Positions 14,056 through 41,263 of a stretch of DNA of 64,000 nt are shown here, piece after piece. The stretch comes from an uncultured Methanosarcinales archaeon. GTDB taxonomy: Archaea; Nanobdellota; Nanobdellia; Woesearchaeales; ARS49. Each line of letters begins with the position of its first letter. Position 1 is the stretch's first letter. The stretch is from positions 31,360 through 95,359 of the forward strand of contig CAZWVL010000005.1 of assembly GCA_964637115.1 (NCBI GenBank), in the 5' to 3' direction. The notes under the pieces are model-generated. The model made no database searches. It worked only from the letters and a program-made list of their open reading frames with translations, and was not told the DNA's origin. Position numbers and translations under genes: made by a program.

Positions 14056-14883
14056 ATGCGTGGATGGATTGTAGTTGTAATGGTGCTGCTTCTTGCAGTT
14101 GTTGTTTCAGCCGGTAACGTGAGTTTGTGTTCTGATACTGATGGCGGCGGTGCAAAGTCTAGGGATGCTGCTTTGAAAGTAAGGGGTGAAGTGAAGTACG
14201 GTATTACCTCTCAGGTCGATACTTGTTTGACTTCAGAAGAGGGTGTTTCTACTAATCAGAGCAAGTGGTTGAAGGAATATTTTTGTGCACTTGACAAAAG
14301 GGAATCTGAAGCTTACGATTGTGTGAGGCTTGGCTTTTCTGGTTGTAAAAACGGTGAGTGTGCTGGTGGAGCTTCTGCAGCCCAGAACCAGTCTCAGCAG
14401 ACTCAGCCGGTAGCTGCTTGTGGCAACAAGATTCTTGAGAAGGACAAGGGCGAGGAGTGCGATCCTCCTAACAAGATTTGTTTTGGCAAGACAAAGGATC
14501 AGTATGGCTTGTGTGACGCGGTTTGCAAGTGTAAGGTTTCTGGTGCTTCTGCTGCCGCGCACGTTCCTGCGTGCGGCGATGATGTGCGAGAGGGCACTGA
14601 AGAATGCGAGAAAGATGATGAATGTCCTGATAATCACGTTTGTTCATCGTGTAAATGTGTTAAACAGTTGACAGCTGCAGATATTGAGGCTATGAAAAAG
14701 CAGGCTGCTGAGGGAAAGACCGAACCTTCAAAAGAGATTGATGAGAAGTACAAGGCGCCTGATATGCACGAAGTTGATCTTAGTGTCAAGAACTTTTCTG
14801 AAGAGCCTGGCATGAAGGCTACCTCGGGAATTGCGAACTTTTTCAAGAGTATTTTTGGATGGATTGCTGCTTTGTTCAGCTGA
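14056..14883 (+). CDS. Secreted cysteine-rich protein
   Basis: Signal peptide, CSDTDGG, CGNKILE…GEECD and CGDDVREGTEECE repeats. Confidence 0.7.
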   Translation: MRGWIVVVMVLLLAVVVSAGNVSLCSDTDGGGAKSRDAALKVRGEVKYGITSQVDTCLTSEEGVSTNQSKWLKEYFCALDKRESEAYDCVRLGFSGCKNGECAGGASAAQNQSQQTQPVAACGNKILEKDKGEECDPPNKICFGKTKDQYGLCDAVCKCKVSGASAAAHVPACGDDVREGTEECEKDDECPDNHVCSSCKCVKQLTAADIEAMKKQAAEGKTEPSKEIDEKYKAPDMHEVDLSVKNFSEEPGMKATSGIANFFKSIFGWIAALFS

Positions 14884-26654: not shown

Positions 26655-27032
26655 ATGGAAAAAATTGGAGTGGCATTGTTGGTTCTTATTGCGGTTGTTG
26701 CATTTATCGGTTTGGTAAACCTTGACACGAGCACTGGCCAGGTCTATTATACTTCTTACCAGTACAAGACTCAGATAGTTACTGGCAACATTCTGAACGC
26801 GCCAGCTGGCGAATACGTTTTAGGCGTTGCTGATGGAGTTCAGGTTGGTATTGGCGAGATTGCTAATGGCCAATATCAGATGACTGTTTCTGGATCTTGG
26901 AGAGAGCATTTGGGCATTGATGTTATGATTAACGGCCAGACTTATTGCGCAACTATTCCTGTTGCGAGACTTCTTGACCCGAGTCAGATTATGTATGATG
27001 GCAGGGTTGCCTTAAGCATTGAGTGCGTGTAA
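26655..27032 (+). CDS. Membrane-anchored exported protein (paralog family)
   Basis: TM plus STGQV, and ADGVQVGIGEIANGQYQMTV. Confidence 0.65.
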   Translation: MEKIGVALLVLIAVVAFIGLVNLDTSTGQVYYTSYQYKTQIVTGNILNAPAGEYVLGVADGVQVGIGEIANGQYQMTVSGSWREHLGIDVMINGQTYCATIPVARLLDPSQIMYDGRVALSIECV

Positions 27033-27039
27033 AACAAGT

Positions 27040-27525
27040 ATGAAGCATGCTATTGCGTTGGCATTGTTGGGATTGATTGCAGCAGTCGCTCTGGTTGGCT
27101 TGATTAATCTGGATTCGAAGACTGGTATGCAGTTTATTATCAGGGGAGATGTTGTGTTGAATGGCGGCATTTACGATCAGGATGGTTATGTTCTCTTTAC
27201 TAAGCACCAGACGAGGTATCAAAAATTATACAATTCTATTGTTGCTGTTGCGCCGGATGGCAGGATTGTTGGCACTGGTCCTTTAAGTCCTGGACAGTAT
27301 CAGCTGACGCTGTATGGTGATTGGAGAAATTATGACACTTTATATCTTCAGATTGGATTTTATGATGCTGTAAGGCCTGAAAGAAACACTTTGTATGACT
27401 GCGCTCCTTTGAACACAGAGGAACTTCAGGGCAGGGCTGGAAGGAGGAGCAGTGTGAGAATTCCGATGGACTTGTACTGTAATGCGGAAACTTTGCAGAA
27501 AGCGTCGACGTTAAGGTATCGTTAA
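27040..27525 (+). CDS. Membrane-anchored exported protein (paralog family)
   Basis: TM plus KTGMQ, and APDGRIVGTGPLSPGQYQLTL. Confidence 0.65.
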   Translation: MKHAIALALLGLIAAVALVGLINLDSKTGMQFIIRGDVVLNGGIYDQDGYVLFTKHQTRYQKLYNSIVAVAPDGRIVGTGPLSPGQYQLTLYGDWRNYDTLYLQIGFYDAVRPERNTLYDCAPLNTEELQGRAGRRSSVRIPMDLYCNAETLQKASTLRYR

Positions 27526-28346: not shown

Positions 28347-29489
28347 TTAGACGAATGCGAGAACTACGTTTGTTATCAATACTGCCAGTATTGCAAAGCT
28401 GACTGATTTCCAGATGGTGCTTGCGTGTTTGTGGTGCAGCCTGCCCTGCAGTGCTGTCAGGAACATTCTGCCGCCGTCAACCGGGCCTAATGGAATCAAA
28501 TTGAACAATCCTACTCCTAGTGAAAGTAAGTACATCCAGAAGATTAGGTCTTTGAACCATAGAACAACGTGCGTGGCCCAGGTTGGCGCTTTCAATGGCT
28601 GGTCTATGAATACTCCTAGCCAGGCTCTTTTGTTGGTTGGATTCTCTCCCAGAGTTATGTCTCTGACAGCATTGGACGTGACTACACTTATAGTGTCTCC
28701 TGGTGAAGAATCTTTCAAAGCATTGCTGAAGTCTGCTGTCTCTCTGATTGCCTGGCCGTTTATCTCGGTTATTTTATCGCCTATTATCATTCCTGCTTGT
28801 TGTGCTGGCGGGTTTCCGTCCATTAAGTCTGTTACAACAACGCCGTCCTTTGAGTAGAAGGTATTGGTGAAAGGTGTAATGATTGTGAACATCAATAACA
28901 TTAGCAATAATCCTGTTACGATGTTTGCTACTGGGCCTGCTGCGTAGACTGCCAGTTGTTTTTTGCGCGATGCTTGCATTAATTTTTTTTCGTCTGGCTC
29001 TACAAACGCTCCTGGAATCAATGGAATTAGTGCGCCAAGGACAACTAGTCCTGAATTCTTGACCTTTAATCCATAAACGCGTGCCATGACGCCGTGCATT
29101 CCTTCGTGTATTATTAGTATGGCAAAAATGCTGATTATCCAGTAGAAAAAGGGCACGTAGAATACTCCTTTTGCTTTGAATGGCAGAACTACTCCAACAG
29201 TCGGCGTTGCAGTGCCGATTAGGATTTGTATGAGAGAGCGTGCGAGGTCAAATGTTACCAATGCCATTCCGATAAATCCTAAGCCGATTATCCAGGGTGT
29301 TGCGATTTCCCAGAAGCGTTTGTATTTTCTGGCAAGCCTGTCCATTGTGATTATGCCTGCCTGTGTTCTGTACATTGCTGCGTAGAATATGCCCCATCTG
29401 TGGAATGAAAGCTTGTGCCTGTTAACATACACGATTAGCGCAAGAACAATGACAAGGGAAATTGTTGCTGCTGTGTCCACAGAAACCAT
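28347..29489 (-). CDS. Site-2 protease (M50) with PDZ domain
   Basis: Motifs IIHEGMHG, GAFVEP, AAGPVANI, PAQQAGM (PDZ) and NLIPLGPVDGG. Confidence 0.93.
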   Translation of the reverse strand: MVSVDTAATISLVIVLALIVYVNRHKLSFHRWGIFYAAMYRTQAGIITMDRLARKYKRFWEIATPWIIGLGFIGMALVTFDLARSLIQILIGTATPTVGVVLPFKAKGVFYVPFFYWIISIFAILIIHEGMHGVMARVYGLKVKNSGLVVLGALIPLIPGAFVEPDEKKLMQASRKKQLAVYAAGPVANIVTGLLLMLLMFTIITPFTNTFYSKDGVVVTDLMDGNPPAQQAGMIIGDKITEINGQAIRETADFSNALKDSSPGDTISVVTSNAVRDITLGENPTNKRAWLGVFIDQPLKAPTWATHVVLWFKDLIFWMYLLSLGVGLFNLIPLGPVDGGRMFLTALQGRLHHKHASTIWKSVSFAILAVLITNVVLAFV

Positions 29490-29560
29490 GGTTTTTGCAT
29501 TGTCAATGGCTATATAATAAATGTTTGTTTTGGTTAGCCTGTTGACTTAGCTGAATAAGC

Positions 29561-30175
29561 TTATTTCAGGTTGTTCTTCTGAATGCAGTATTCTATAAAA
29601 GTCAGCATTGGAAGCACAATCACGTTATTTTGATATTTTATTACTGCTACAAAATTCTCTCTTGCTGCCACGCTTATGCCGAATTGTATGCCGCCGTGCG
29701 GGATGTGCATGTGAACTGGGCTCGAGTCTCTTATTGCCTGCAGATATTCATCTGCAGTTCGGATATGTGTATGTGTTAGCTTTTCAACTTCTATGATTTC
29801 TGGCTGCCATATACCGGCGTGTGCTGTTCTGTAGAGTATCCGTCTTAATACGCTTTCGGCTTCTGCTTTCTGCAATGGGGTTCCCCCTGTGAAAATGCAC
29901 ATATCATCTTTACCTTGTTTTATTCCTTCCATTCGTGTTCCAAGCGCTTTTTTTGCAGGGTAGAACTCTTCAATCACTTTGATGTATCCGTCAGTGTATA
30001 TCCCGTCTTTTATTTCGATACCTTTGCCTATAATTTCGTCTAATCCTCTTGGGTCTGGTGCAAATTTTACCTCTGGTTGCTTGGGTTTTTCAATTTCTTT
30101 TTCCGGGACATCTTTCCCTCTGATGTTGTAATCAATTGGGTGTTCTGGGTCCGCAAAAGGGTTTTTTGGTGTCAT
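29561..30175 (-). CDS. NPFADPEHPIDY-tag protein, copy 1 (unique payload)
   Basis: Starts MTPKNPFADPEHPIDYNIRGKDV. ATGA overlap with copy 2. Confidence 0.8.
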   Translation of the reverse strand: MTPKNPFADPEHPIDYNIRGKDVPEKEIEKPKQPEVKFAPDPRGLDEIIGKGIEIKDGIYTDGYIKVIEEFYPAKKALGTRMEGIKQGKDDMCIFTGGTPLQKAEAESVLRRILYRTAHAGIWQPEIIEVEKLTHTHIRTADEYLQAIRDSSPVHMHIPHGGIQFGISVAARENFVAVIKYQNNVIVLPMLTFIEYCIQKNNLK

Positions 30176-30480
30176 CTTAATTTATTATTCAGTGAGATGT
30201 TTTTATACAATTCAGTGATTTCAAGATTGCTGGTTTTTGTAATGTTAAATTTTTCTTTTGTATCGATTATTATTTTGGATAAACAACTTTCAAAATAATC
30301 CAAGTGTTTAAAATATTTCATTTTTTCCAAATCAAGTTTTACTTTTCCAATTAGACCTTCAAGGAAGGGTTTACTTTCTGGTTTGTTCTGTGGCTTTTCA
30401 ACTTCGTTAGGAACGTCTTTCCCACAAATTCCATAATCAATCGGATGTTCTGGGTCCGCAAATGGGTTTTTCGGAGTCAT
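30172..30480 (-). CDS. NPFADPEHPIDY-tag protein, copy 2 (short, AT-rich payload); start reassigned
   Basis: MTPKNPFADPEHPIDYGICGKDV. ATGA overlap at 30477-80. Confidence 0.7.
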   Translation of the reverse strand: MTPKNPFADPEHPIDYGICGKDVPNEVEKPQNKPESKPFLEGLIGKVKLDLEKMKYFKHLDYFESCLSKIIIDTKEKFNITKTSNLEITELYKNISLNNKLR

Positions 30481-31232
30481 TTTTTTGTTCGTACCCCACG
30501 CGACGCCCTGCTGTCGTAGTAGCCGTAGACGTTGCACATGCCGTCGAAGTCGGCACGGCCAACAGGCCGCGCAGCACCATCAGGAGGCAAACTCATGCGC
30601 GCTTTGAAGTTGCCTTCACGCACCTCTTGTGGCAAATCCTTGAACTTCCGCCCATAGATGGCTTGAACCAAGTCATCACTGAATTCATCGAGTGGAATCC
30701 ACGTGTTTGATTTTTTACCTGCAATGTCAAACTCCTGCTTGTCGACAAATTTGAAAGAGGAATTTTTCACGTACGTATTGCTGTTCCACACCAATCCTTC
30801 AGGGTCGAGATATGCGATGAGAATGTTTCCTTTGCGTTCGAATGCCATGCTGAACCATTCGCCATAGCTTGATAACATATCGGCATGCATATTTCTGAAT
30901 GAAGTATCTACGAGCTTTCCCTTTATACCATCCATGATAAGACCAAGTGCTTCCTGAGGTCTCGGGTGACGCTCAAAGCCGGGCTCAAGGCCGTCTATGG
31001 TCAAGCGAACCAAACTGTTATTGAAATAGAACAACATCTTTTCTGATGCTCCTTGCTTACGACATGCAAGCGGCTCAAACTCAATACCCTTGTAAGAGGC
31101 TGTTACGATTCTGTTTTGCAGTGGAGTTTCAGGTTTTTCTTTCTCAGCATTTGCAGGTTCCTTCACATCCTTCCCTCTAATATTGTAATCTATCGGATGC
31201 TCTGGATCCTCGAATGGGTTTTTCGGAGTCAT
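30477..31232 (-). CDS. NPFADPEHPIDY-tag protein, copy 3 (subfamily A, DGR-VR-like C-terminus)
   Basis: Tag, then a domain paralogous to copies 7 and 8, ending SRGVRTKK. Confidence 0.85.
   Translation of the reverse strand: MTPKNPFEDPEHPIDYNIRGKDVKEPANAEKEKPETPLQNRIVTASYKGIEFEPLACRKQGASEKMLFYFNNSLVRLTIDGLEPGFERHPRPQEALGLIMDGIKGKLVDTSFRNMHADMLSSYGEWFSMAFERKGNILIAYLDPEGLVWNSNTYVKNSSFKFVDKQEFDIAGKKSNTWIPLDEFSDDLVQAIYGRKFKDLPQEVREGNFKARMSLPPDGAARPVGRADFDGMCNVYGYYDSRASRGVRTKK
30491..30568 (-). other. Putative DGR variable-region-like segment, copy 3
   Basis: 14 of 16 codons end in C, between flanks identical to those at 36131-36205. Confidence 0.5.
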
Positions 31233-32023
31233 TTCTTTCCTCTTGAGATTTTTTGCGCGCGTATGCCGATGGCTGGTCCCAAATAGGTCATATCGGCAGT
31301 GGCTTTGATTCTGAACTGGCCAATGCCGGCTTCTCCCATGATGACAGCAAGCTCAGTTGTTTCTTGCGGCGTCTTGTCAAGGCGCCAAAGGTACGTGTCG
31401 TAACCGCTTATCCAATGATAAACATCATTGATTTCTTCTAGGTTGTCTGTGCCGAGTATTGCTTTGCAAGCTTTTCTGCCATGCTTGGAGGTTTTCAACC
31501 ATTCGTCTGGACCTATGATATTCTCGATTAATCTTTCAGTAGGAAGGTTATGTGCCACGTGATCAGGCGGGCCTATGTGTGCGTAATACGTGACGCTGGA
31601 AAGCGTGTACACCACATTCCGGTCAAACGTATCGTGCAGGAAAGTCCTGACTTTCTCCATCAATCCTTTGTGTTGTGCAACGTCTTTGTTCCGGTAGAGT
31701 GCTGTGAACAATGCGTGATACATCGGTGCAGAAACCAGCGCAAAGACTTTGTCTTTTGCAGCTTTCTTAGAGTAAGCAAGCCAACCGTCGTGATTATACT
31801 TCGCGCCTCCCAAAAGAAGCTCTTTGGCAATATCGATAACATAAGTGTCGTTCTTGAACGGTACACCGTAAACGCGATATTTCTCAGCGAAGTCCTCAAG
31901 GCTGAATACGGAAGATGACGGTGCAGGTTCTCTTTTCTCAACCTTTGCCTCCTTCACGTCCTTCCCTCTAATATTGTAATCAATCGGGTGTTCCGGGTCC
32001 GCGAAAGGATTGTTTATAGGCAT
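31229..32023 (-). CDS. NPFADPEHPIDY-tag protein, copy 4 (subfamily B)
   Basis: MPINNPFADPEHPIDY…, FSLEDFAEKYRVYGV, ends AIGIRAQK. Confidence 0.85.
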   Translation of the reverse strand: MPINNPFADPEHPIDYNIRGKDVKEAKVEKREPAPSSSVFSLEDFAEKYRVYGVPFKNDTYVIDIAKELLLGGAKYNHDGWLAYSKKAAKDKVFALVSAPMYHALFTALYRNKDVAQHKGLMEKVRTFLHDTFDRNVVYTLSSVTYYAHIGPPDHVAHNLPTERLIENIIGPDEWLKTSKHGRKACKAILGTDNLEEINDVYHWISGYDTYLWRLDKTPQETTELAVIMGEAGIGQFRIKATADMTYLGPAIGIRAQKISRGKK

Positions 32024-33702
32024 CTTGCCACCTGTTTGTACTTGTCGCTCGCCACTTTTACCATGAGTTTGGCCAAGTCATCATTTTTGCCAACGTAGTA
32101 GACTGCCACTCCCCAAGATTCGAGGTCTTCGCTGAACTGGTTTTTGCCTCCTATTTGTATGTGTGCAGTTGAGCATTGCTGTGCAAGTGTTTTGTAGTCA
32201 TCTTTGATGCTTTCCCAGTTGCCTATTGCTCCGTCTGATAACGTCAGCAAAAATGTTTCTTCTTTCACTCGTTCTTTTAATTTGTTGATGTCGAGTGTTG
32301 TTACGCCCCATTGTGGTGTTAACAGAACTTTGTGCGCTTCTTGTCCGCTTCCTGCAATTGTTTCTGAGCTGAAGTTTACAACTCCTGCATCCACGTATGG
32401 TGCTATGTGCTGCTGTTGCAGGTATCTTTCTATGCCGTAGTATCCTAAGAGTGCGTAGTGGTATTTGCTTTTGTCTCCCCAGGGAATGAATGCCTTATTT
32501 CCGACGTTTTCTGTATTATTAGGAGCCAGTTCCATGCTTCCGCTGGAGTCTATGACTGCCAGCCTGAAGTTTGGGAATTTCTTGATATTGTGCTTGTATA
32601 CTTGTTCTGTTTCTATCCAGCCCCTGTTCACCATTAATCCTACAGAGCCGTCTTCGTTGATTCCGACTGTTGTTTTACGGGTGAAAATGTCGTGTGCTTC
32701 TGGATCGTATGCTTCTCTTCCGTATGGTGCTATTGGGAATCTGTATCCGTGTGTGAACGTGTCTATTTCTACCGGGATTTCTCTTGCAAGGCTTCTGTAT
32801 AGTGCGTCCAGCTGTTCGTAGGAATCCCTGTTTTGTGCTGGTCCCCTGCCTGCCTTGTACCTGTTGTGCGCCACTTTTTCCTGTCCGTCTGGGCTTTTCA
32901 TTTTTTTGTCAAACGCGTCTTCTCCTATCATTGCGTGGAGCAAATGTTCTTCTTTCTTGTCGAGAAGCGGTTCCATTATTGTTGCGAATTGTTCTGCCAT
33001 TTTTTCCCAGCGCTTTTTTTGGTATAGCTGTTCTACTTTTTCGCTCACTTTGCCCTTTTGCACGCCCCAGTTAGTCAGGACGTCATTTACTGCTTTCTGG
33101 ACTGTTTTGTCGTTTGTGTACCATCTTTTCAGCAATCTTTTATCCGCCTTGTTTCCTCCAAGTGCCAAATTCAACCTTACAAATGCATCATAGAATTTTG
33201 TGTACTTGCCGTGCGTCATTCCTTGTTCGTTCCAGAATAATATTTGTCCTGCGTGGTCTGTGTGGAGTCTGCAGTTTAAATTCACAAGCACGTCTTCAAA
33301 TGCGTTTGACACGTGGTCTGCGTATGCTTCTTTTCCTTTTTTCCCCAATATTTTTGTTACGCTTTCAAGTATTGCATCCCTGTATGTTTCGTCGTATGGG
33401 CATCCTTTGCCCGAACTTCTTGGTAGTTCCCAATGTCCGCATTCGTGGTACAGTATGTCTTCGCACATTTTCTCAAGTGGTTTGGAAATTCTTTTCTTCT
33501 TGACGTATTGTTCTGTTGCCTTGTCTCTTACCGGCTGGTAGCCTTCTTTGACGTGTATTTCCACGTGCCAGTCTCCAGTGTCTATAAACGCGCTTACAGG
33601 CTCTTTTGCATCAGCTGTCTCGAACAATTTTAGTCTGCCGCCTACCAATCCTATCCTGTTTTTCTGCTTGTTCAGTTTTTGTTCGAGTTCGCTGAGGGTC
33701 AT
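32014..33702 (-). CDS. HExxH metallopeptidase-like domain plus C-terminal vWA (MIDAS) domain
   Basis: ILYHECGHWE and NAFEDVLVN. MIDAS elements IDSSGSM, GVTT and LSDG. Confidence 0.85.
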   Translation of the reverse strand: MTLSELEQKLNKQKNRIGLVGGRLKLFETADAKEPVSAFIDTGDWHVEIHVKEGYQPVRDKATEQYVKKKRISKPLEKMCEDILYHECGHWELPRSSGKGCPYDETYRDAILESVTKILGKKGKEAYADHVSNAFEDVLVNLNCRLHTDHAGQILFWNEQGMTHGKYTKFYDAFVRLNLALGGNKADKRLLKRWYTNDKTVQKAVNDVLTNWGVQKGKVSEKVEQLYQKKRWEKMAEQFATIMEPLLDKKEEHLLHAMIGEDAFDKKMKSPDGQEKVAHNRYKAGRGPAQNRDSYEQLDALYRSLAREIPVEIDTFTHGYRFPIAPYGREAYDPEAHDIFTRKTTVGINEDGSVGLMVNRGWIETEQVYKHNIKKFPNFRLAVIDSSGSMELAPNNTENVGNKAFIPWGDKSKYHYALLGYYGIERYLQQQHIAPYVDAGVVNFSSETIAGSGQEAHKVLLTPQWGVTTLDINKLKERVKEETFLLTLSDGAIGNWESIKDDYKTLAQQCSTAHIQIGGKNQFSEDLESWGVAVYYVGKNDDLAKLMVKVASDKYKQVARCL

Positions 33703-33722
33703 TTTTTCTCTCCTGAGATTTT

Positions 33723-34514
33723 TTACACGCGTACGCCGAATGCAGATAATTTTTCGTCGGTTAAGTCATCGGCGCAAATTTCGAACTTGGATATGCCGTC
33801 TCCGTCGTAGACGCCAAGTGCAACCACTTGCTCTGCTTTTTTTGTTGGTTGGCTCTTAAATCTGCGCGCATACGAATTCTCTTTTGTGACCCACTTGAAT
33901 ACTTCATTGATTTGTACAACTTCATCTGTTGTGTCCAGGAGCGCTTGTGAATATTCTGTTGCACCCGCCAGTACAATGAAATTTTCATCTCCGATTAGCG
34001 TTGCTTTTTTTGTGTACTGCGTTTTTTGTTTGTATTCATGGATGACATCATTAACGCCGTTTGGATTGTATATTGCCCTCGAAAGCGTGCAAATAAAAAT
34101 CTCTTCCCCGATGACTTCTTCAAGCGTTTGTCGTGCATTTTCAACAAATTTCTTGTACTGACGTTCTTCGTTTTTGTAAAGCGATCTGCAAATAGCGTAA
34201 ACCAATGGCGCTGAGGCAGCAACGAATTCATCAGGTTTTGCTTGCTTTGCGTGTTCTGCATGCTCATCTTGCGTCTTCTCCGGCAATACTGATTTTGAAA
34301 AATCAACTGCATAAATGCCGTTTCTATATCGCACTCCTGTAATTCGATAGGAATCTGCAAGCTCTTCCAGGCTGAAGTCAGTCCTGATTTGATTGGGCGC
34401 AGGGCTCACAGGAACCTTCTTTGGTTCGCTCTTTTGCGGTTCCTTTACATCCTTCCCTCTAATATTGTAATCAATCGGGTGTTCAGGGTCCGCAAATGGA
34501 TTTTTTGGTGTCAT
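33723..34514 (-). CDS. NPFADPEHPIDY-tag protein, copy 5 (subfamily B)
   Basis: Tag, FSLEELADSYRITGV, ends AFGVRV. Confidence 0.85.
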   Translation of the reverse strand: MTPKNPFADPEHPIDYNIRGKDVKEPQKSEPKKVPVSPAPNQIRTDFSLEELADSYRITGVRYRNGIYAVDFSKSVLPEKTQDEHAEHAKQAKPDEFVAASAPLVYAICRSLYKNEERQYKKFVENARQTLEEVIGEEIFICTLSRAIYNPNGVNDVIHEYKQKTQYTKKATLIGDENFIVLAGATEYSQALLDTTDEVVQINEVFKWVTKENSYARRFKSQPTKKAEQVVALGVYDGDGISKFEICADDLTDEKLSAFGVRV

Positions 34515-35335
34515 TTTGTTTTTGTTGCGCGAATGCCTAGGGCAATGTGTTGTGCTTCGTATGAAGTGGCTAAAGTCAAGAATGAATGATGATTAGGACC
34601 GCCACCAACATGTTGGTCGCCTTTGCCGAATACGACTGCGCAGGGTTTCTCTGGCTGCACAAAAGGACTGAAATCCACCATTGTGGGATATTCAACTAGC
34701 CATTGGTGCACTGCGTCAACGTGCCCGTAATCCTCGTTTCCAAAGATGCTCTTGCACAGGGGTTCTCTCGCATCGCTTCGAAATTCGTGAAAGTAACCTC
34801 TTGATGCTGGGAAACCTTCAAAATGGTCTTTTTTGCCTTCAGGGTCAAGATGGCAGCCTAATTTAGGCGTGATTTGTGAGTTTTTTTCTCCGAACGAAAT
34901 GCTCGACATCGTCATGAATTGGCTTCGACTTCCAAGTACGTTTTGCAGGAAAAGTTGAACCATTTTAATCTGTTTTTCGTATCTCGGATCGTTCCTGTTT
35001 TGATACAACGCGTCAAAGAATGCAAAATATAAAGGCATGCTTCCAACTCCAAAGCCGCCTCTACTTCTTGCCTGCGATGTGTATTCAAACCATTGTTCTA
35101 TGTTTTTTTGGCTGCAGGCTTCCAATGCTGTATAGCCGTCTAGGTCTACTGTGTAGATTCCATTTCCGTACTTTACTCCGTTCACGCGTATGAATCCTTG
35201 AGTGTCATCTATGCTGAAGAGGCTTGAAATTTCCGGCTTGGGTGCCGCTTGTATGACTCTTTCAACCAAATCTTTGCCTCTAATATTGTAATCTATCGGG
35301 TGTTCAGGGTCCGCGAAAGGGTTTTTTGGGTTCAT
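34511..35335 (-). CDS. NPFADPEHPIDY-tag protein, copy 6 (subfamily B, divergent)
   Basis: Tag, FSIDDTQGFIRVNGVKYGNGIYTVD, ends ALGIRATKTK. Confidence 0.85.
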   Translation of the reverse strand: MNPKNPFADPEHPIDYNIRGKDLVERVIQAAPKPEISSLFSIDDTQGFIRVNGVKYGNGIYTVDLDGYTALEACSQKNIEQWFEYTSQARSRGGFGVGSMPLYFAFFDALYQNRNDPRYEKQIKMVQLFLQNVLGSRSQFMTMSSISFGEKNSQITPKLGCHLDPEGKKDHFEGFPASRGYFHEFRSDAREPLCKSIFGNEDYGHVDAVHQWLVEYPTMVDFSPFVQPEKPCAVVFGKGDQHVGGGPNHHSFLTLATSYEAQHIALGIRATKTK

Positions 35336-36120
35336 TTCTCTCTGACTCCGCGTGAGGCTGCCTTTGTGTAATAACAGCCGATGTTAAATTTGTAGCTAGA
35401 TTTGTACTCACCCGTGCCGCCTATGCTTACTGGCCAAAAGTCTCCACCCGTTGGAATGCTTACTCGGATTTTTTCAGGGCCTTTTCGCAATTTTTCTGGC
35501 AGGTCTTCGAATGAGCGGCCTGTGATAAATCGTACAAATTTGTCATCAAAAGCTTTCAATTCCTGCCAATAATTTCCTACATTCCCGACATCAAATTCAA
35601 GGACATATCTGAATGTAAAATCGTCTCTCTTGTGGTATCCAGACCATTTTTTTCCCGAAGGAGGGTTAGCAAAATAATCCAAGTTTCGCGGCTCAATATA
35701 TGCGAGCAGAATGTTTCCTTTTCTTTCAAATGCCAGGCTCAACCATTCGCCCGAACCCTTGCCCATGTCATTAAAGACTGCCTCTAAATCTCCGCTAAGG
35801 CGTTTCTCAACGCCATCAATGATAAGTCCAAATGCTTCGTGGGCTTTTGGATGGCGAGTATAGTTGTTTTTCTTGATTCTTTCCAAACTGCCGTCATACT
35901 GCCATAGTTTTTTGAAGGAATTTTCGCCACGTAACACTTCTTTTTCAAATATCAGGTCGTTATAATTTGTGGCGTGCTGTATTGGAGCCGGGGATGGCTC
36001 TGGCTTATTCTTGCCTTCTTTTTCATCTTTTGTCGCTCCTTTCTGTTCTGGCACATCCTTCCCACTAATTCCATAATCAATCGGGTGTTCAGGGTCCGCA
36101 AATGGATTTTTTGGTGTCAT
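35332..36120 (-). CDS. NPFADPEHPIDY-tag protein, copy 7 (subfamily A); start reassigned
   Basis: Tag, RHPKAHEAFGLI, EWLSLAFERKGNIL, ends SRGVREK. Confidence 0.85.
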   Translation of the reverse strand: MTPKNPFADPEHPIDYGISGKDVPEQKGATKDEKEGKNKPEPSPAPIQHATNYNDLIFEKEVLRGENSFKKLWQYDGSLERIKKNNYTRHPKAHEAFGLIIDGVEKRLSGDLEAVFNDMGKGSGEWLSLAFERKGNILLAYIEPRNLDYFANPPSGKKWSGYHKRDDFTFRYVLEFDVGNVGNYWQELKAFDDKFVRFITGRSFEDLPEKLRKGPEKIRVSIPTGGDFWPVSIGGTGEYKSSYKFNIGCYYTKAASRGVREK

Positions 36121-36851
36121 TTTTTCTTGCGTACCCCACGCGACGTCCAGGTTTCGAGGTGACTGCCGCAGACGCCGTACCCACGGTAGCAACGGCCAAC
36201 AGGCCACGCAGTATTATCAAGAGGCAATTGCATGTGCGCTTTGTTGTTGCCTTTACGCATGGCTTGTGGCAAATCCTTGAACTTCCGTCCATAAACTGCT
36301 TGGAGTAAGTCATCATTGAATTCATTGAGTGGAATCCACGTGTTTGATAGTTTGCCTGCAATGTCAAACTCCTGCTTATCGACAAATTTGAAAGAGGAGT
36401 CTTTTACGTAAGTATTGCTGTTCCACACCAACCCTTCGGGATCAAGATAGGCGATGAGAATGTTTCCTTGGCGTTCGAATGCCGTGCTGAACCATTCGCC
36501 AGCGATTGATATCATATCAGTATACTTATTTCTGTATGAGGTATTAACGAGTTTTTCTTCTAAACAATCCATAATAAGACCAAATGCTTCCTGAGGGCGA
36601 GCATGCCTGTCGAAACCAGCACTTCGCACCCTGTTCAGGCTATCGTTGAAATAAAATAACTTATTTTCTGGTGCTCCTTGCCCAAGGAATGGAAGCGGTT
36701 CAAACTCAATATCCTTGTAAGAGGCTGTTATGATTCTGTTTTGTTTTGGAGTTTCAGGAACAATCGGTCCTTTTTGTTCTGGCACATCCTTCCCTCTAAT
36801 ATTGTAATCAATCGGGTGTTCAGGGTCTGCAAAAGGGTTTTTTGGTGTCAT
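36117..36851 (-). CDS. NPFADPEHPIDY-tag protein, copy 8 (subfamily A, DGR-VR-like C-terminus); start reassigned
   Basis: Tag, close paralog of copy 3, ends SRGVRKKK. ATGA overlap with the MoxR stop. Confidence 0.85.
   Translation of the reverse strand: MTPKNPFADPEHPIDYNIRGKDVPEQKGPIVPETPKQNRIITASYKDIEFEPLPFLGQGAPENKLFYFNDSLNRVRSAGFDRHARPQEAFGLIMDCLEEKLVNTSYRNKYTDMISIAGEWFSTAFERQGNILIAYLDPEGLVWNSNTYVKDSSFKFVDKQEFDIAGKLSNTWIPLNEFNDDLLQAVYGRKFKDLPQAMRKGNNKAHMQLPLDNTAWPVGRCYRGYGVCGSHLETWTSRGVRKKK
36131..36205 (-). other. Putative DGR variable-region-like segment, copy 8
   Basis: 10 of 15 codons end in C, with the same flanks as copy 3. Confidence 0.45.
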
Positions 36852-38047
36852 TTTTTTGCAGAGTTGGCTGTCCTGTTTAGGATGTCTTTCATGTATGCCC
36901 ATCTGCCCTCGAATTCTGTGAGGTGTTTGGCTGTTCCTTTTTGCGCTGACTTGATGGCCTGCATCAGCACGTCTTTCTTTGTTGAAAATTCGTTTCTGAT
37001 TCCGTCCATTACTGCTTGCATGGCGCTGTACGTGTTGCCGTCATAGTGTTGGTTTACTGCTGCAGGAGCAAGTACTCCTGATTGTGCTCCTATGAGATAG
37101 GCAGCGTCAAATACTGCTTCCAAGCTGTCTTGGTAAGCATTGTCCTTTGCCTTGCGCACTTCTTCGAATGCTTTTGCAAGTGTTAGCGTGCTTATTGCTG
37201 ATCTGGTGCTGAATGGGTAAATCAATGCTGCGTCGCTTCCCTTTGCATGGTTTTTCACGCATCCTGGCCAGGCGTTTTTGTTTTTGCGCTTGCTGTTGCC
37301 TTGCACGCTGTCAAGATAGTCAAGTCCGTGCACAAGGTACATTGCTGCCACGTATTGCAATAGTGTTGGATTGGATTTTTCTGTAAACTCCTTGTGTGCC
37401 TGAAGTATTTGTTCTGTCTTGTCCGTGCTTTCAGCTGAGCTTACACGTGGGTCTTTCTTGCTTATCAAGACGTCAAGCGTGTCGCTTGAGCTTTTTGGGA
37501 ACGCATCTGCATCAATTATCAGGTGCATTCTGTCAAGCAGTGCTCTGTCCACTTCTGATGTTCCTACAAATCTTCCATTGCCGACGTTTCCTGATGCTAT
37601 TCCTATGCTGTAGCCGTCTTTGCCAAGCTGGTATTTCTGTCCGTCTATTGTTATGAATCCGTCGAATAGGTTGAAGAATTGGTTTTGCACTGCCGGAATG
37701 CATCTTGTCAGCTCGTCTATTACATAAACGAGATGTTTTGCGTTTGCCGTAATTTCCTTTATTCCTTCTGTTGATTTGTTTTTGTCAATTTTGTCCAAGT
37801 TTAATTTGGTGAACATTTCCCTGACTGTCAGGTCATTTCTTCCTTGTTCAAAGAATCCTTTGTTGCCGAACAATCCCAAAATGTCATTCTCAAGCTGTGT
37901 TTTTCCTTCTCCTGTGTCTCCTATGAGCAAAAGGTTTAACCTGCCCAGTAAACAAGATTTCACAATGTCTTCCATTGCGATGCCTGGCACAACTTCTGTT
38001 GAGTTTTTGTAGTTTTGTAGTTTGATGGAGTTTAGTTCGTCTTTCAT
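36848..38047 (-). CDS. MoxR-like AAA+ ATPase
   Basis: Walker A LIGDTGEGKT, Walker B YVIDELTR, then QNQFFNL, IASGN and Arg finger DRALLDRM. Confidence 0.9.
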   Translation of the reverse strand: MKDELNSIKLQNYKNSTEVVPGIAMEDIVKSCLLGRLNLLLIGDTGEGKTQLENDILGLFGNKGFFEQGRNDLTVREMFTKLNLDKIDKNKSTEGIKEITANAKHLVYVIDELTRCIPAVQNQFFNLFDGFITIDGQKYQLGKDGYSIGIASGNVGNGRFVGTSEVDRALLDRMHLIIDADAFPKSSSDTLDVLISKKDPRVSSAESTDKTEQILQAHKEFTEKSNPTLLQYVAAMYLVHGLDYLDSVQGNSKRKNKNAWPGCVKNHAKGSDAALIYPFSTRSAISTLTLAKAFEEVRKAKDNAYQDSLEAVFDAAYLIGAQSGVLAPAAVNQHYDGNTYSAMQAVMDGIRNEFSTKKDVLMQAIKSAQKGTAKHLTEFEGRWAYMKDILNRTANSAKK

Positions 38048-38190
38048 TTTTCTACCTCGCTTAGAATTGTTATCTTGATTTCAGCAACTGTTCCTGGCTT
38101 TAGCTGTGTTTCAAGCACTTTAGGAATGACTATTACTGCCTGTTTTCCGTGTTTGGATATGCGTTTTGTTATAGTATAGGTATCTTGCAT
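38044..38190 (-). CDS. 48-aa AbrB/MazE-like swapped-hairpin DNA-binding protein (below the ORF-track cutoff)
   Basis: Manual translation MQDTYTITKRISKHGKQAVIVIPKVLETQLKPGTVAEIKITILSEVEK*. ATGA overlap with moxR, SD-like AGGGTGG upstream. Confidence 0.75.
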   Translation of the reverse strand: MQDTYTITKRISKHGKQAVIVIPKVLETQLKPGTVAEIKITILSEVEK

Positions 38191-38312
38191 TTTATACATA
38201 CCACCCTTGTATCATATAGAGAAAAACAGGGTTTATTTAAATCTTTCTAAATTTAATTACTTTGAAGTAGTAAAAAGAAAGTTTTTTATAGGTGTTTTCT
38301 GAAAGCGTCATT

Positions 38313-38939
38313 ATGGGCAGAAAGAAGAAGAGTTTTTGGGCAGATGCGGTGTTTATTGGGGCTTGTGCAGCTGCAGGTTTATACTGTTTGGCGCGAATAA
38401 GAGATTCAGCTGATGACGCGCCCCTGCCTGCAGAGAAGCCCGTAGTTATAGCAGCAATGCCTCAGCCTGAAGCTCCAAAGAAACTGGAGCAGATTGTTGT
38501 TGATGAAAAAGCAGTATTGACATTCGTACAATCAAGAGAAAGTTTTCAGTTCTATGGCGATAGAGTTTTGAAAGGAGGCAAGTACCGGCAGTTAGATGCA
38601 GACTTGTACGGGTTATTGATGCACATGGCAGATGCTTACAAGGCGCAGTTTGACCAACCATTATTCATAGGCCCTATGTGGGATGACCAAGGGCATGTAA
38701 AGAATTCAAAGCATTATGATGGGTTGGCTGTTGATATTGACTTTGGTGCAAATATTGGTACGCCTCAATATATTAAGACTGACAAGGATAAAGCAGAGTT
38801 TCTTTTGCGTCATGTCCAGAAATATGCAAATAAGCACAATAAAGAATTTAAAGTTCTGTTCAACGATCCTGATTTCGTGAATATGAAATTATGCAAGGAA
38901 TCTCCTGGCCACCACAATCATATTCACGTGTCGAAGTGA
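38313..38939 (+). CDS. Membrane-anchored Zn peptidase of the M15/MepA (LAS, hedgehog/DD-peptidase) type
   Basis: N-terminal TM. SKHYDGLAVDID (H-x6-D) and C-terminal GHHNHIHV (HxH). Confidence 0.75.
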   Translation: MGRKKKSFWADAVFIGACAAAGLYCLARIRDSADDAPLPAEKPVVIAAMPQPEAPKKLEQIVVDEKAVLTFVQSRESFQFYGDRVLKGGKYRQLDADLYGLLMHMADAYKAQFDQPLFIGPMWDDQGHVKNSKHYDGLAVDIDFGANIGTPQYIKTDKDKAEFLLRHVQKYANKHNKEFKVLFNDPDFVNMKLCKESPGHHNHIHVSK

Positions 38940-39541: not shown

Positions 39542-39625
39542 TTTTTATTACCTTGTAGTGACTACAAATAGAAAGGTTTTTATAGGGCTCTGGATTTCTA
39601 AATGCTTTACAACGAGGTATCTACT

Positions 39626-41263
39626 ATGATCAAGAAAACATTGGCCGGAATGGCACTTTCATTGGCAGCTTTAGTTGGTTGCTACGGAGCTAAAGAGTCT
39701 TCGAGCCCAGCCGTCATTTCTGCACCTGTCAAAGACCCAGAGATTTTTCCAACACCGGTTCCGGTTTGTGACAGCAAAGTGCTAGAGCTTTATGAAGATC
39801 TTTACGAGCACTTCCGCACTCTCACTTCAGCCGAATGGCCTGCAGTGCTTAAGGACGGTTCTATTACAAACGCGCAAGGTACTACACAATACTTGCAGCG
39901 CCTGACGCATGCAGGAAGGGTTATTTTTGGCCAGAATGAATATAATATTGTCGATACATTTTTCCACGCAAAAGATGGCCAGACATTGTTCAGTTATGCA
40001 ATTGCATTCCCTGACAAGTTGAAGTCTAGCCGCAATCTTCTCACCAATGGATTACCTGATCTTGTCGGCGTACAATTCAACATTCTTGGAAAAGACTATG
40101 TTGTTGATGCTGTCTCGATGTCGGTTGATGGAGATATGAAGATGAATCTGACTTCGTTGGACGGTCTCACTATGCTGGCGTTCAGTGATAATTCGAATGA
40201 CGTAATTAATGGTTTTTCTGTGCGTGTTAATGGCATACCTGTTCCTGAGGGGCGCATCAGTTTTAACAAGATTTTTGATGCAGACACTGCCGAGCTTGAC
40301 AGTATAGTTTACAAGCTTGCTGCAGAAACGCCTTTCGGCGACCTGTATGTTCCGCCGGGCGAGGGCGTGCGCCAACACTTGCAGCGTCCGCAGGCATTGC
40401 TTAGCGATGGTTGGGACGTCCTGTATGCAGGACTTAACACGACAAATGACACAACAATGCTGTTCTCGCAGCCGCAGCCGAGCGTGATCGACTTCTCCTT
40501 CGTTTCAAGGGAAAACATTCCATACTCGTTCGCCCTTGCGGAAAACGTTGACGGTAAAGTATCATTTTCGCGCAACTACAATTCAAACCGCCTCCGTTTT
40601 ATCGAGGGCGAGCCGATTGTCGCAGGCGACCGCTTTATCCTGAATAAGCCCGGCTCTGACTTAACGCGCGTACTAGAATATAACACGATAGACACAGTTG
40701 CTAGGCAAGTTACTTTCCAAGACTTGGGCACAGGGACGCGACAGGTCACGTACGACGCCGTCACCAAGAAAGGTGATTTGATTGTCGGCGGGGACACGTT
40801 CGCGTTCCAGGTTGACGAGGCAAACGGCAATGCACTCTATGTTGACTTGAACGGCGATGGTGCCTTAGACGGCAGTGGTCCGAATGGCCAGCTCGCCCAC
40901 ATCGTTAACAAGTTCGGCGGCAAACTGCACCTTCCGCAGCTGTATTCTGCTCCGGAGTTTTACGTTAAAATTGAAGCGCCTGGCAGCGGAATTGATAGCA
41001 GGGCGTGCAATCCTGCGCTTGGTGGCGAGGCCGTGCCTATCCAGCTCAGCGCGCGCGACAATGTCAATATGGACGTTTCAGTGCTGACGCAACTGGAATC
41101 GTCCGGTTCAGCAATCCCTGACGTGCATTACGACCTGCCCGCGAACATGTTCCGCGGAATGTCGCAGTATGGCGTCGAAGTGCAGCATATGCCATCTGCG
41201 CGCCTGCTCTATGTGCAGTACCCGCAAACGCAGCGCAAGCCGCGCATCGCGTTCACGCCTTGA
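39626..41263 (+). CDS. S-layer-like lipoprotein
   Basis: Lipobox LVGC. Beta-rich segments (TRVLEYNTIDT…TFQDLGTGTRQVTY…LIVGG…VDLNGDG) resemble DPANN S-layer proteins, from recall. Confidence 0.55.
   Translation: MIKKTLAGMALSLAALVGCYGAKESSSPAVISAPVKDPEIFPTPVPVCDSKVLELYEDLYEHFRTLTSAEWPAVLKDGSITNAQGTTQYLQRLTHAGRVIFGQNEYNIVDTFFHAKDGQTLFSYAIAFPDKLKSSRNLLTNGLPDLVGVQFNILGKDYVVDAVSMSVDGDMKMNLTSLDGLTMLAFSDNSNDVINGFSVRVNGIPVPEGRISFNKIFDADTAELDSIVYKLAAETPFGDLYVPPGEGVRQHLQRPQALLSDGWDVLYAGLNTTNDTTMLFSQPQPSVIDFSFVSRENIPYSFALAENVDGKVSFSRNYNSNRLRFIEGEPIVAGDRFILNKPGSDLTRVLEYNTIDTVARQVTFQDLGTGTRQVTYDAVTKKGDLIVGGDTFAFQVDEANGNALYVDLNGDGALDGSGPNGQLAHIVNKFGGKLHLPQLYSAPEFYVKIEAPGSGIDSRACNPALGGEAVPIQLSARDNVNMDVSVLTQLESSGSAIPDVHYDLPANMFRGMSQYGVEVQHMPSARLLYVQYPQTQRKPRIAFTP

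What the first reader, a model, noticed from the sequence alone, without database searches (positions are those of the whole stretch)
29561..38190. MoxR-vWA/peptidase operon with eight proteins sharing one N-terminal peptide tag and carrying variable payloads
Seen: a minus-strand operon, almost entirely ATGA-coupled, in the order AbrB-like gene, MoxR ATPase, tag8-7-6-5, peptidase-vWA, tag4-3-2-1. All eight proteins begin with NPF[AE]DPEHPIDY[NG]I[RCS]GKD, then a P/E/K-rich linker, then payloads from at least three unrelated groups. Nucleotide differences among tag copies are mostly synonymous, so selection appears to act on the peptide. No signal peptides, so the proteins are cytoplasmic. Known: MoxR ATPases work with vWA partners as remodelling machines and occur in diversifying conflict systems. 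Inference: the tag is a docking or recognition signal that plugs interchangeable sensor/effector modules into one MoxR-vWA machine. I do not recognise this tag from any described family.
Basis: partly seen in the sequence, partly recalled or inferred. Interest (0 to 1): 0.93.

Follow-up and report, generated by a model that had tools for sequence, protein, structure and literature searches.

The report
Tagged lectin array beside MoxR-vWA machine
A tiny symbiotic (DPANN-type) archaeon acquired an 8.7-kb gene island in which eight proteins, mostly relatives of the hypervariable lectin-fold proteins that mutagenic retroelements rewrite, all start with the same short peptide and sit beside an ATP-driven MoxR motor and a protease-like vWA partner; the peptide looks like a system-specific handle, but what it binds is not shown.

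Summary
Window 29561-38199 (minus strand) holds one operon: a small leader gene, an AAA_5/MoxR ATPase, four tagged genes, an HExxH+vWA gene and four more tagged genes. Eight of ten junctions are ATGA overlaps. All eight tagged proteins begin with the same 22 residues. Synonymous divergence in the tag is 0.59 and non-synonymous 0.07.

Six of eight belong to two families of diversity-generating-retroelement (DGR) target proteins. A model of t5 matches the nanoarchaeal variable protein AvpA (Z 11.3). Homologous operons elsewhere carry a template repeat, a reverse transcriptase and adenine-specific variable regions in these same families.

This genome has neither. The variable regions are identical in five independent assemblies, so the array appears to be a frozen, orphaned DGR target set. 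It is an island inserted between two genes that are adjacent in relatives.

In about 30 related DPANN loci, each locus has its own shared N-terminal peptide. Tag identity is 0.55-1.0 within a locus and 0.10 (median) between loci. This fits a cognate docking handle, but the partner is unresolved.

This scan has already reported the same system class in at least eight other genomes. I rate it a new variant of the bacterial MoxR-vWA/DGR systems.

The parts
38044..38199 (-). Small leader gene (51 aa), ATGA-coupled to the ATPase gene. Its motif resembles AbrB/SpoVT, but this is not confirmed.
   Evidence: ORF. Conserved in L009 and L012 at 58-76% identity. No significant Pfam or PDB sequence match.
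36848..38047 (-). MoxR-like AAA+ ATPase (399 aa)
   Evidence: Pfam AAA_5, E 1e-10, 42.2 bits against a cut-off of 22, residues 38-174. Walker A G-x-x-G-x-GK and Walker B D111/E112 are invariant in 12 orthologues.
36117..36851 (-). t8: tagged payload, group A (244 aa), with a VR-like C-terminal block at 36130-36205
   Evidence: Its flanks are identical to the VR flanks of locus L016, which has a TR.
35332..36120 (-). t7: tagged payload, group A (262 aa). The C-terminal SRGVR peptide is kept, but the IMH-like DNA has decayed.
34511..35335 (-). t6: tagged payload, group B (274 aa)
   Evidence: payload HMM, E 4e-59
33723..34514 (-). t5: tagged payload, group B (263 aa). Residues 46-263 are modelled as a C-type-lectin fold; residues 1-44 (tag plus linker) are disordered.
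   Evidence: AF2 model, pLDDT 86.9. Best structural match is AvpA 5ioo_B (Z 11.3, 167 aligned, rmsd 3.5), then TaqVP 5vf4 (Z 8.8).
32014..33702 (-). HExxH plus vWA(MIDAS) protein (562 aa)
   Evidence: AF2 model, pLDDT 91.8. Residues about 375-560 are a vWA fold (4fx5 Z 15.7; NorD vWA 9qh8_G Z 14.0 over residues 297-556). H86, H90, D137, D385, S387, T468 and D490 are invariant, and E87 and S389 nearly invariant, in 40 homologues. No Pfam hit.
31229..32023 (-). t4: tagged payload, group B (264 aa)
   Evidence: E 8e-71
30477..31232 (-). t3: tagged payload, group A (251 aa, 70% identical to t8), with a VR-like block rich in NNC codons at 30490-30568
30172..30480 (-). t2: tagged short protein (102 aa). 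It shares only the tag and linker with t7 and has no recognisable body.
29561..30175 (-). t1: tagged payload of a third family (204 aa), without a GVR end
   Evidence: Its one homologue, P0175 (31% identity), has a different N-terminus.
29490..38291 (.). Limits of the inserted island. In three same-genus genomes the M50 protease gene and the M15-like gene flanking this stretch are about 130 nt apart.

Best explanation
The operon is an archaeal (DPANN) relative of the bacterial MoxR-vWA systems that use DGR-diversified lectin-fold proteins. Here the lectin-type binders are separate small proteins instead of being fused to the vWA protein. Each carries a 22-residue N-terminal peptide and a disordered P/E/K-rich linker of about 20 residues. 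I propose that this peptide is a system-specific docking handle. It would let any payload encoded in the operon be recruited to the cognate MoxR ATPase / HExxH-vWA pair. The most likely acceptors are the metal site (MIDAS) or the beta-hairpin insert of the vWA protein, or the ATPase pore. The payload's variable C-terminal face binds a ligand. The ATPase and the metalloprotease-like domain then remodel or clip the bound payload to pass on or end the signal.

Shown: the anatomy, the selection on the tag, the payload fold and its DGR ancestry, the tag rule across loci, and the island status. Inferred: the docking itself, its acceptor, and everything downstream.

In this genome the retroelement is missing. 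The array is therefore a fixed set of eight binders, not a diversifying one.
For: 1) Tag: eight copies, 16 invariant positions, pS 0.59 against pN 0.068. Within this locus the first 20 residues are 89% identical while the payload bodies are 32% identical.
2) Locus-specific rule: in 13 curated loci the tag identity within a locus is 0.55-1.0, apart from one locus (L025) where the ungapped comparison was out of register. The median between loci is 0.10. The same pattern appears in 20 further loci, with up to 15 tagged genes in one locus.
3) The same payload family carries different tags in different operons. The closest operon (L012, vWA protein 59% identical) has its own tag dialect on both of its payloads.
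4) The tag and linker are disordered in the model (pLDDT 40-54), as expected for a short linear motif.
5) Partners: the AAA_5 ATPase; a vWA fold with invariant MIDAS residues and a NorD/Rea1-like insert. By established knowledge, vWA MIDAS sites of MoxR partners and of Rea1 bind an acidic residue of the client, and the tag has invariant Asp residues.
6) Payloads are DGR-type binders: t5 against AvpA, Z 11.3; TR/VR/RT sets in L009 and L016 for both payload families; RT within 10 kb in 18 of 35 loci.
7) Every operon has MoxR and the vWA protein together with tagged genes.
Against: No physical or predicted contact between the tag and either partner has been obtained. Tag families track the MoxR and vWA phylogenies equally well (AUC 0.88 and 0.87), which only shows that the whole operon is inherited as a unit. 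In several other loci the tag DNA is almost identical between copies (94-100%), so recent duplication or gene conversion contributes to the sharing there. The N-terminal HExxH half has no fold or family assignment, so 'peptidase' rests on motifs alone. The folds of group A, t1 and t2 were not modelled. No expression data could be obtained.
Confidence: 0.5

Rival explanations
1. The tag is a propeptide or sorting signal. The HExxH domain of the vWA protein would cleave the tag and linker to mature the lectin-fold proteins. These would then be exported or mounted on the cell surface as adhesins for attachment to the host cell, with MoxR-vWA acting as an assembly chaperone.
For: The HExxH motif and a downstream acidic residue are invariant in 40 homologues. 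Each payload has a flexible linker behind the tag. DGR targets of cellular genomes are mostly proposed to be surface binders (PMC8144416). vWA proteins are often adhesin or pilus-tip components.
Against: No protein in the operon has a signal peptide or a hydrophobic segment, and no secretion genes lie in the island. The tag differs between loci, whereas the peptidase active-site motif does not. A cleavage site alone would not need 16 invariant residues.
Confidence: 0.2
2. The tag mediates association of the payloads with each other, for example a shared N-terminal helix or strand that bundles different lectin-fold subunits into hetero-oligomers. It would not contact MoxR or vWA directly.
For: Known DGR variable proteins oligomerise (my knowledge of Mtd and TvpA; not tested here). 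Tags of many other loci look like amphipathic helices. The tag is shared only among payloads and is absent from MoxR and the vWA protein.
Against: The NPF...DPEHPIDY tag is proline-rich and is not predicted to be helical. t2 consists of little more than tag and linker. Invariable co-occurrence with MoxR and vWA would be left unexplained.
Confidence: 0.12
3. The shared 5' ends are kept by DNA-level processes: recent duplication, gene conversion, a recombination site for cassette shuffling, or a translational-coupling element. The peptide itself would have no function.
For: Tag DNA is 94-100% identical between copies in L009, L016 and L028. The genes are ATGA-coupled.
Against: In this window synonymous sites in the tag are close to saturation (pS 0.59, up to 0.97 for single pairs) while the peptide is nearly invariant (pN 0.068). 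That is the opposite of what DNA-level conservation predicts.
Confidence: 0.04

Closest known systems
DGR-associated vWA-MoxR (VMAP) ternary conflict systems of cyanobacteria and gammaproteobacteria (Kaur et al. 2020, PMC7159879; Dore et al. 2024, PMC10907252)
   Same: A MoxR-type AAA+ ATPase and a vWA protein sit in one locus with C-type-lectin/FGS domains whose C-terminal variable region is written by a DGR. The lectin domain is proposed to be the ligand sensor.
   Different: In those systems the lectin domain is fused to the vWA protein and a third VMAP protein carries the effector. Here the lectin-type proteins are free-standing, occur in arrays of 2-15, and each carries a short locus-specific N-terminal peptide. 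The vWA protein carries an HExxH domain. No VMAP, EAD, TIR, caspase or trypsin domain is detected. [quoted passage not shown]
AvpA and other archaeal/bacterial DGR variable proteins (PDB 5ioo, 5vf4, 2y3c; Handa et al. 2016, PMC5006420; Paul et al. 2015, PMC4372165)
   Same: Lectin fold with the variable region at the extreme C-terminus. Multiple targets per element and RT-less 'partial DGRs' were already noted in Nanoarchaeota.
   Different: No sequence-level similarity to AvpA. The AvpA paper (PMC5006420) contains none of the terms N-terminal, ATPase, signal or neighbor; in PMC4372165 'N-terminal' occurs only for a His-tag on the expression construct and 'ATPase' and 'Willebrand' not at all. 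This genome has no RT or TR at all.
Effector-associated domains (EADs) of bacterial NTPase conflict systems (Kaur et al. 2020)
   Same: The logic is the same: one adaptor element shared by many otherwise different proteins of one system recruits them to a core machine.
   Different: EADs are folded domains that also occur in the core protein and pair homotypically. The tag here is a 22-residue disordered peptide that is not present in MoxR or the vWA protein.
Terminal targeting peptides of bacterial microcompartments and encapsulins (from my own knowledge, not tested here)
   Same: A short terminal peptide plus a flexible linker is shared by diverse cargo proteins encoded in one operon.
   Different: No shell or encapsulin gene lies in or near the island.
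NorQ-NorD, CbbQ-CbbO and Rea1-MIDAS type MoxR/vWA remodelling pairs
   Same: The vWA domain has a MIDAS site and an inserted beta-hairpin region. NorD (9qh8_G) aligns over residues 297-556 at Z 14.0, and the Rea1/MDN1 MIDAS domain at Z 12.
   Different: Those pairs act on one dedicated client (NO reductase, Rubisco, pre-ribosome). Here the presumed clients are an array of tagged binders, and the vWA protein has an extra HExxH domain.

Membership tests
DGR target (variable) protein | C-type-lectin fold carrying the variable region at the C-terminus | tested here: met
   t5 model (pLDDT 86.9) against AvpA 5ioo_B, Z 11.3, and TaqVP, Z 8.8, followed by dozens of C-type lectins at Z 6-7. Not modelled for group A, t1 or t2.
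DGR target (variable) protein | A template repeat elsewhere that differs from the VR at adenine positions | tested here: not met
   There is no TR-like repeat of any payload tail in the 1.27-Mb genome. The feature is met in the homologous loci L009 and L016 for both payload families.
DGR target (variable) protein | A DGR reverse transcriptase in the genome | tested here: not met
   No RVT_1 match in G000, which is 98% complete. An RT lies within 10 kb in 18 of 35 related loci.
DGR target (variable) protein | GC-rich IMH-like element at the 3' end of the VR, and NNC-type codons in the VR | tested here: met
   t3 and t8 carry the same flanks as the L016 VRs (GGCCTGTTGGCCGT ... GTCGCGTGGGGTACG), with an NNC-rich block between them. 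The element has decayed in t7, t4, t5 and t6.
MoxR-type AAA+ ATPase (Pfam AAA_5) | AAA_5 domain with Walker A and Walker B | tested here: met
   E 1e-10, 42.2 bits against a cut-off of 22; invariant GK and DE.
vWA domain with MIDAS | vWA fold and the D-x-S-x-S ... T ... D metal site | tested here: met
   Z 14-15.7 to many vWA structures over residues 375-560. D385, S387, T468 and D490 are invariant and S389 nearly invariant. Pfam VWA is not reached.
Zincin metallopeptidase | HExxH with a third ligand, in a zincin fold | tested here: inconclusive
   H86, H90 and D137 are invariant and E87 nearly invariant. Fold searches were filled by the vWA domain, so the N-terminal half was not tested alone. 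No Pfam or PDB sequence match.
VMAP ternary system (Kaur et al. 2020) | A third protein with a VMAP domain, plus effector or EAD domains | tested here: not met
   No Pfam, NCBIfam or PADLOC family other than AAA_5 is matched above its curated threshold by any operon protein; the best PADLOC row is DolB, E 9e-5, for the ATPase. I assume, but did not verify, that the Pfam copy contains the VMAP and EAD models.
AbrB/SpoVT-type regulator | Swapped-hairpin domain recognisable by profile | tested here: inconclusive
   No significant Pfam or PDB hit, even with a 3-sequence profile. The resemblance is by motif only.

The most novel reading that the evidence does not exclude
The short locus-specific N-terminal peptides are a previously undescribed class of linear-motif adaptors. 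They would let one MoxR/vWA-metalloprotease machine read out a whole library of free-standing hypervariable lectin receptors. That would make this a cytoplasmic, antibody-like recognition repertoire in DPANN archaea, which persists and stays under selection even after the diversifying retroelement is lost.
Probability: 0.3. Interest if true: 0.85.

Novelty: new variant of a known kind. Interest (0 to 1): 0.6.

Why it matters
The function of DGR variable proteins in DPANN archaea and CPR bacteria is an open question; papers I could read say little is known about their targets (PMC5758913). Fixed co-encoding with a MoxR ATPase and a vWA/HExxH protein gives these proteins a concrete biochemical context. 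The shared locus-specific handle gives a direct experiment: pull-down and tag swap. This window adds three points. The tag stays under strong purifying selection at saturated synonymous divergence. The array can survive as a frozen set without its retroelement. The whole module moves as an island. If the docking model holds, it would extend the proposed 'diversified sensor plus NTPase' immunity logic from multicellular bacteria to the smallest archaea.

Tried and rejected
1) Complex prediction of MoxR (1-395), the vWA protein, the tag (1-40) and Mg gave a score of 0.00, verdict 'no answer'. It counts neither for nor against binding.
2) Covariation: tag-family sharing against pairwise identity gave AUC 0.88 for MoxR and 0.87 for the vWA protein. 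Only the beta-hairpin segment before the vWA fold stood out (0.95). That was one of seven post-hoc tests on non-independent pairs, so I treat it as a lead only.
3) Foldseek against PDB found nothing for the payload model. The VIA-align wide search was needed.
4) Profile searches against PDB sequences for the payload, the vWA protein and the small gene gave no significant hits.
5) hhalign between payload groups A, B and t1 found no similarity beyond the tag and the C-terminal end.
6) The protein-atlas search for t1 gave scores of 0.78 or less, which is uninformative.
7) The viral-contig scan with the vWA protein found no relative, though this method only finds close relatives.
9) Paul et al. 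2017 (Nat Microbiol) could not be read, so I cannot exclude that it mentions these neighbours.
10) I found no direct repeats of 8 nt or more at the island borders.
11) A group II intron reading of the L009 RT was rejected, because an AAC-rich TR with three matching VRs sits directly upstream.


Full report
OBSERVATION. The minus strand of window 29561-38199 carries eleven tightly packed genes. They are a 51-aa gene (38044-38199), a 399-aa ATPase (36848-38047), t8 (36117-36851), t7 (35332-36120), t6 (34511-35335), t5 (33723-34514), a 562-aa gene (32014-33702), t4 (31229-32023), t3 (30477-31232), t2 (30172-30480) and t1 (29561-30175). Eight of the ten junctions are ATGA overlaps. All eight 't' proteins start with the same 22-residue peptide, with 16 invariant columns of 25. 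Over codons 2-22, the 28 pairwise comparisons give pS 0.59 and pN 0.068. The DNA has therefore diverged almost to saturation while the peptide has not. A six-frame scan of the whole 1.27-Mb, 27-contig genome finds only these eight copies. No operon protein has a hydrophobic segment that could be a signal peptide or anchor.

WHAT THE PARTS ARE. Only the ATPase reaches a Pfam threshold (AAA_5, E 1e-10). NCBIfam and PADLOC add nothing above their cut-offs.

The 562-aa protein belongs to a family with 287 representatives at E below 1e-3 in the 1.84-billion-protein library. In an alignment of 40 members, H86, H90 and D137 (HExxH plus a downstream acidic residue) and D385, S387, T468 and D490 (MIDAS) are invariant. 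E87 and S389 are nearly invariant. Its AlphaFold model (pLDDT 91.8) has a C-terminal vWA fold, with Z 14-15.7 to many vWA structures. NorD from the NorQ-NorD complex aligns over residues 297-556, and the Rea1/MDN1 MIDAS domain scores Z 12. The helical N-terminal half with HExxH could not be assigned to a fold, so 'peptidase' rests on motifs.

The small leader gene is conserved in related operons, but no search confirms it as AbrB-like.

THE PAYLOADS ARE DGR-TYPE VARIABLE PROTEINS. Homologues of t5 carry different N-termini and a conserved C-terminal P-A-L-G-V-R end. Their contigs show the same operon plan.

In L009 an AAC-rich template repeat (14405-14494) lies directly upstream of an RVT_1 reverse transcriptase. 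Three payload genes end in variable regions that differ from it at template adenines. This is a classical diversity-generating retroelement. The GVR end is encoded by the GC-rich element at the 3' end of the variable region.

In L016 the vWA protein is 60% identical to ours. The same holds there for the second payload family, group A (t8, t7, t3), with a TR at 8305-8367 and two VRs. The VR flanks of L016 are identical to sequences in t8 (36130-36205) and t3 (30490-30568). Between those flanks lie blocks rich in NNC codons that are only 62% identical between t8 and t3, although the two genes are otherwise close.

The AlphaFold model of t5 (pLDDT 86.9; residues 1-44 disordered) finds the nanoarchaeal variable protein AvpA as its best structural match (5ioo_B, Z 11.3, 167 residues, rmsd 3.5). 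Next come the Thermus variable protein TaqVP (Z 8.8) and many C-type lectins. Foldseek alone missed this.

Groups A, B and t1 show no profile similarity to one another. 'Three unrelated groups' is therefore fair at the sequence level, but A and B are both DGR-target families. t1 has one distant homologue, which has a different N-terminus. t2 is little more than tag and linker.

THIS ARRAY HAS LOST ITS RETROELEMENT. The genome is 98% complete. It has no RVT_1 match and no template-like repeat of any payload tail.

The same operon occurs in a JGI metagenome contig and in Logan assemblies of four sequencing runs. The four Logan contigs are 100% identical to the window where they overlap. The JGI contig differs at only two positions in the 8.7-kb operon, neither in a variable region. 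At consensus level the variable regions are therefore fixed. RT-less 'partial DGRs' were already noted in Nanoarchaeota (PMC4372165). In t7 the DNA element has decayed but the SRGVR peptide is kept. The GVR end is thus also constrained at the protein level; in the t5 model it lies in the last beta-strand.

ISLAND. In three genomes of the same genus, the M50 protease gene (window 28347-29489) and the M15-like gene (38292-38939) are about 130 nt apart. Here the operon sits between them, with no border repeats found. The tag is not found in 60 relatives, of which 14 are from the same genus. One of these, G010, is unpublished; no claim here depends on it. The vWA protein family is found in 48 of 401 high-quality genomes of the phylum, in a patchy pattern: 7 of 29 in the family, and none of the four other genus members sampled. 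The exact tag is very rare. Only ten candidates exist among 5.8 billion protein clusters, namely this organism's own proteins and two metagenome fragments.

THE TAG RULE. I collected 14 named DPANN loci (Woesearchaeota, Pacearchaeota and Nanoarchaeota MAGs) and 20 more from the phylum search. Almost every locus with two or more payloads has its own shared N-terminal peptide, on 2 to 15 genes. In 13 curated loci the first 20 residues are 0.55-1.0 identical within a locus, apart from L025, where the ungapped comparison was out of register. Payload bodies are 0.32-0.52 identical in seven of these loci (0.82-0.96 in the four whose payload genes are recent duplicates; not computed for L015 because one of its two payloads is truncated by the contig end). 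The median tag identity between loci is 0.10. Tags fall into loose families. The NPF tag of this window has dialects in L012/L015, L016 and L022, and it resembles the F-A-[GD]-[FP] tags of other loci. An RT, intact or split, lies within 10 kb in 18 of 35 loci.

MECHANISM. The best-supported reading is that the tag is a cognate handle. It would bring free-standing lectin-type binders to the MoxR/vWA-HExxH pair of the same operon. By analogy with NorD, CbbO and Rea1 (established knowledge), the MIDAS site of the vWA domain would take an acidic residue of the client, and the tag has invariant Asp residues. This step is inference.

The single complex prediction gave no answer. Covariation cannot separate MoxR from the vWA protein (AUC 0.88 against 0.87).

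The rivals are as follows. The tag could be a propeptide or sorting signal cleaved by the HExxH domain. It could be an oligomerisation element among payloads. Or the conservation could lie at the DNA level, which largely excludes for this locus.

COMPARISON WITH WHAT IS KNOWN. MoxR-vWA 'ternary' systems with DGR-diversified lectin/FGS domains are described in cyanobacteria and gammaproteobacteria (PMC7159879, PMC10907252). There the lectin domain is fused to the vWA protein, and VMAP/EAD components are present. [quoted passage not shown]

The archaeal form seen here has free lectin proteins with a locus-specific linear tag and an HExxH-vWA partner, and no VMAP. I did not find it in the papers I could read, but I could not read Paul et al. 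2017.

Within this scan the same system class has already been reported from at least eight other genomes. As a class it is therefore not new to the scan. What this window adds is the largest-divergence test of selection on the tag, the orphaned (RT-less, frozen) state, and the clean island insertion.

VERDICT. The finding is real and well defined. It is a new variant of a known kind, with a testable but unproven docking mechanism. I score interest at 0.6, not 0.93. The payloads and the MoxR/vWA-DGR link have clear precedents, the scan has seen the class repeatedly, and the central claim that the tag binds the machine remains untested.

Noticed in passing
window 39602-41263 (+): This 553-aa gene has an N-terminal hydrophobic segment, so it is probably a surface protein. 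It carries 29 of the 36 differences between the window and the otherwise 99.7%-identical JGI contig L093, all within about 570 nt at its 5' end. The whole 8.7-kb operon has only 2 differences. It is a local hotspot of variation.
   Followed up: partly
window 38292-38939 (+): A gene with H-x6-D and H-x-H motifs of LAS/M15-type peptidases behind a hydrophobic N-terminus. It has no Pfam hit. It is conserved next to the M50 protease gene in genus relatives, so it belongs to the core genome and not to the island.
   Followed up: partly
L025 12704-13789; L026 4384-5565; L080 12261-13406; L082 9075-10283; L092 131-1114: In 5 of 18 loci with a DGR reverse transcriptase, the RT is split into two overlapping ORFs at a similar place. 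This could be decay, sequencing error or a programmed frameshift.
   Followed up: no
L085 (G361:C1) and L077 (G178:C2): These are very large tagged arrays, with 15 and 10 genes sharing one N-terminal peptide. Many of the genes lack a GVR end, so non-lectin cargo may be common in some loci.
   Followed up: no
L009 1-8300 and 16895-18124: The related operon in GCA_040961665.1 lies among STAND NTPase, PIN-nSTAND3, transglutaminase and nucleotidyltransferase genes and next to a phage-type integrase. This looks like a defence or mobile island context.
   Followed up: no
window 30172-30480 / 35332-36120 and 30477-31232 / 36117-36851: t8-t7 and t3-t2 look like one duplicated gene pair. t8 and t3 are 70% identical. 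t7 and t2 share the Gly17 tag variant and the linker. The upstream DNA of t7 and t2 is nearly identical. The body of t2 has since been lost or replaced.
   Followed up: partly
window 26655-27525 (+): Two adjacent genes have N-termini that resemble archaeal pilin (class III signal peptide). They are conserved in one genus relative (L041).
   Followed up: no
L015, L016, L027: The MAGs that hold the closest relatives of this operon are labelled 'uncultured Methanosarcinales', while all other hits are DPANN. This points to a binning or labelling error, or to transfer between a DPANN symbiont and a possible host lineage.
   Followed up: no
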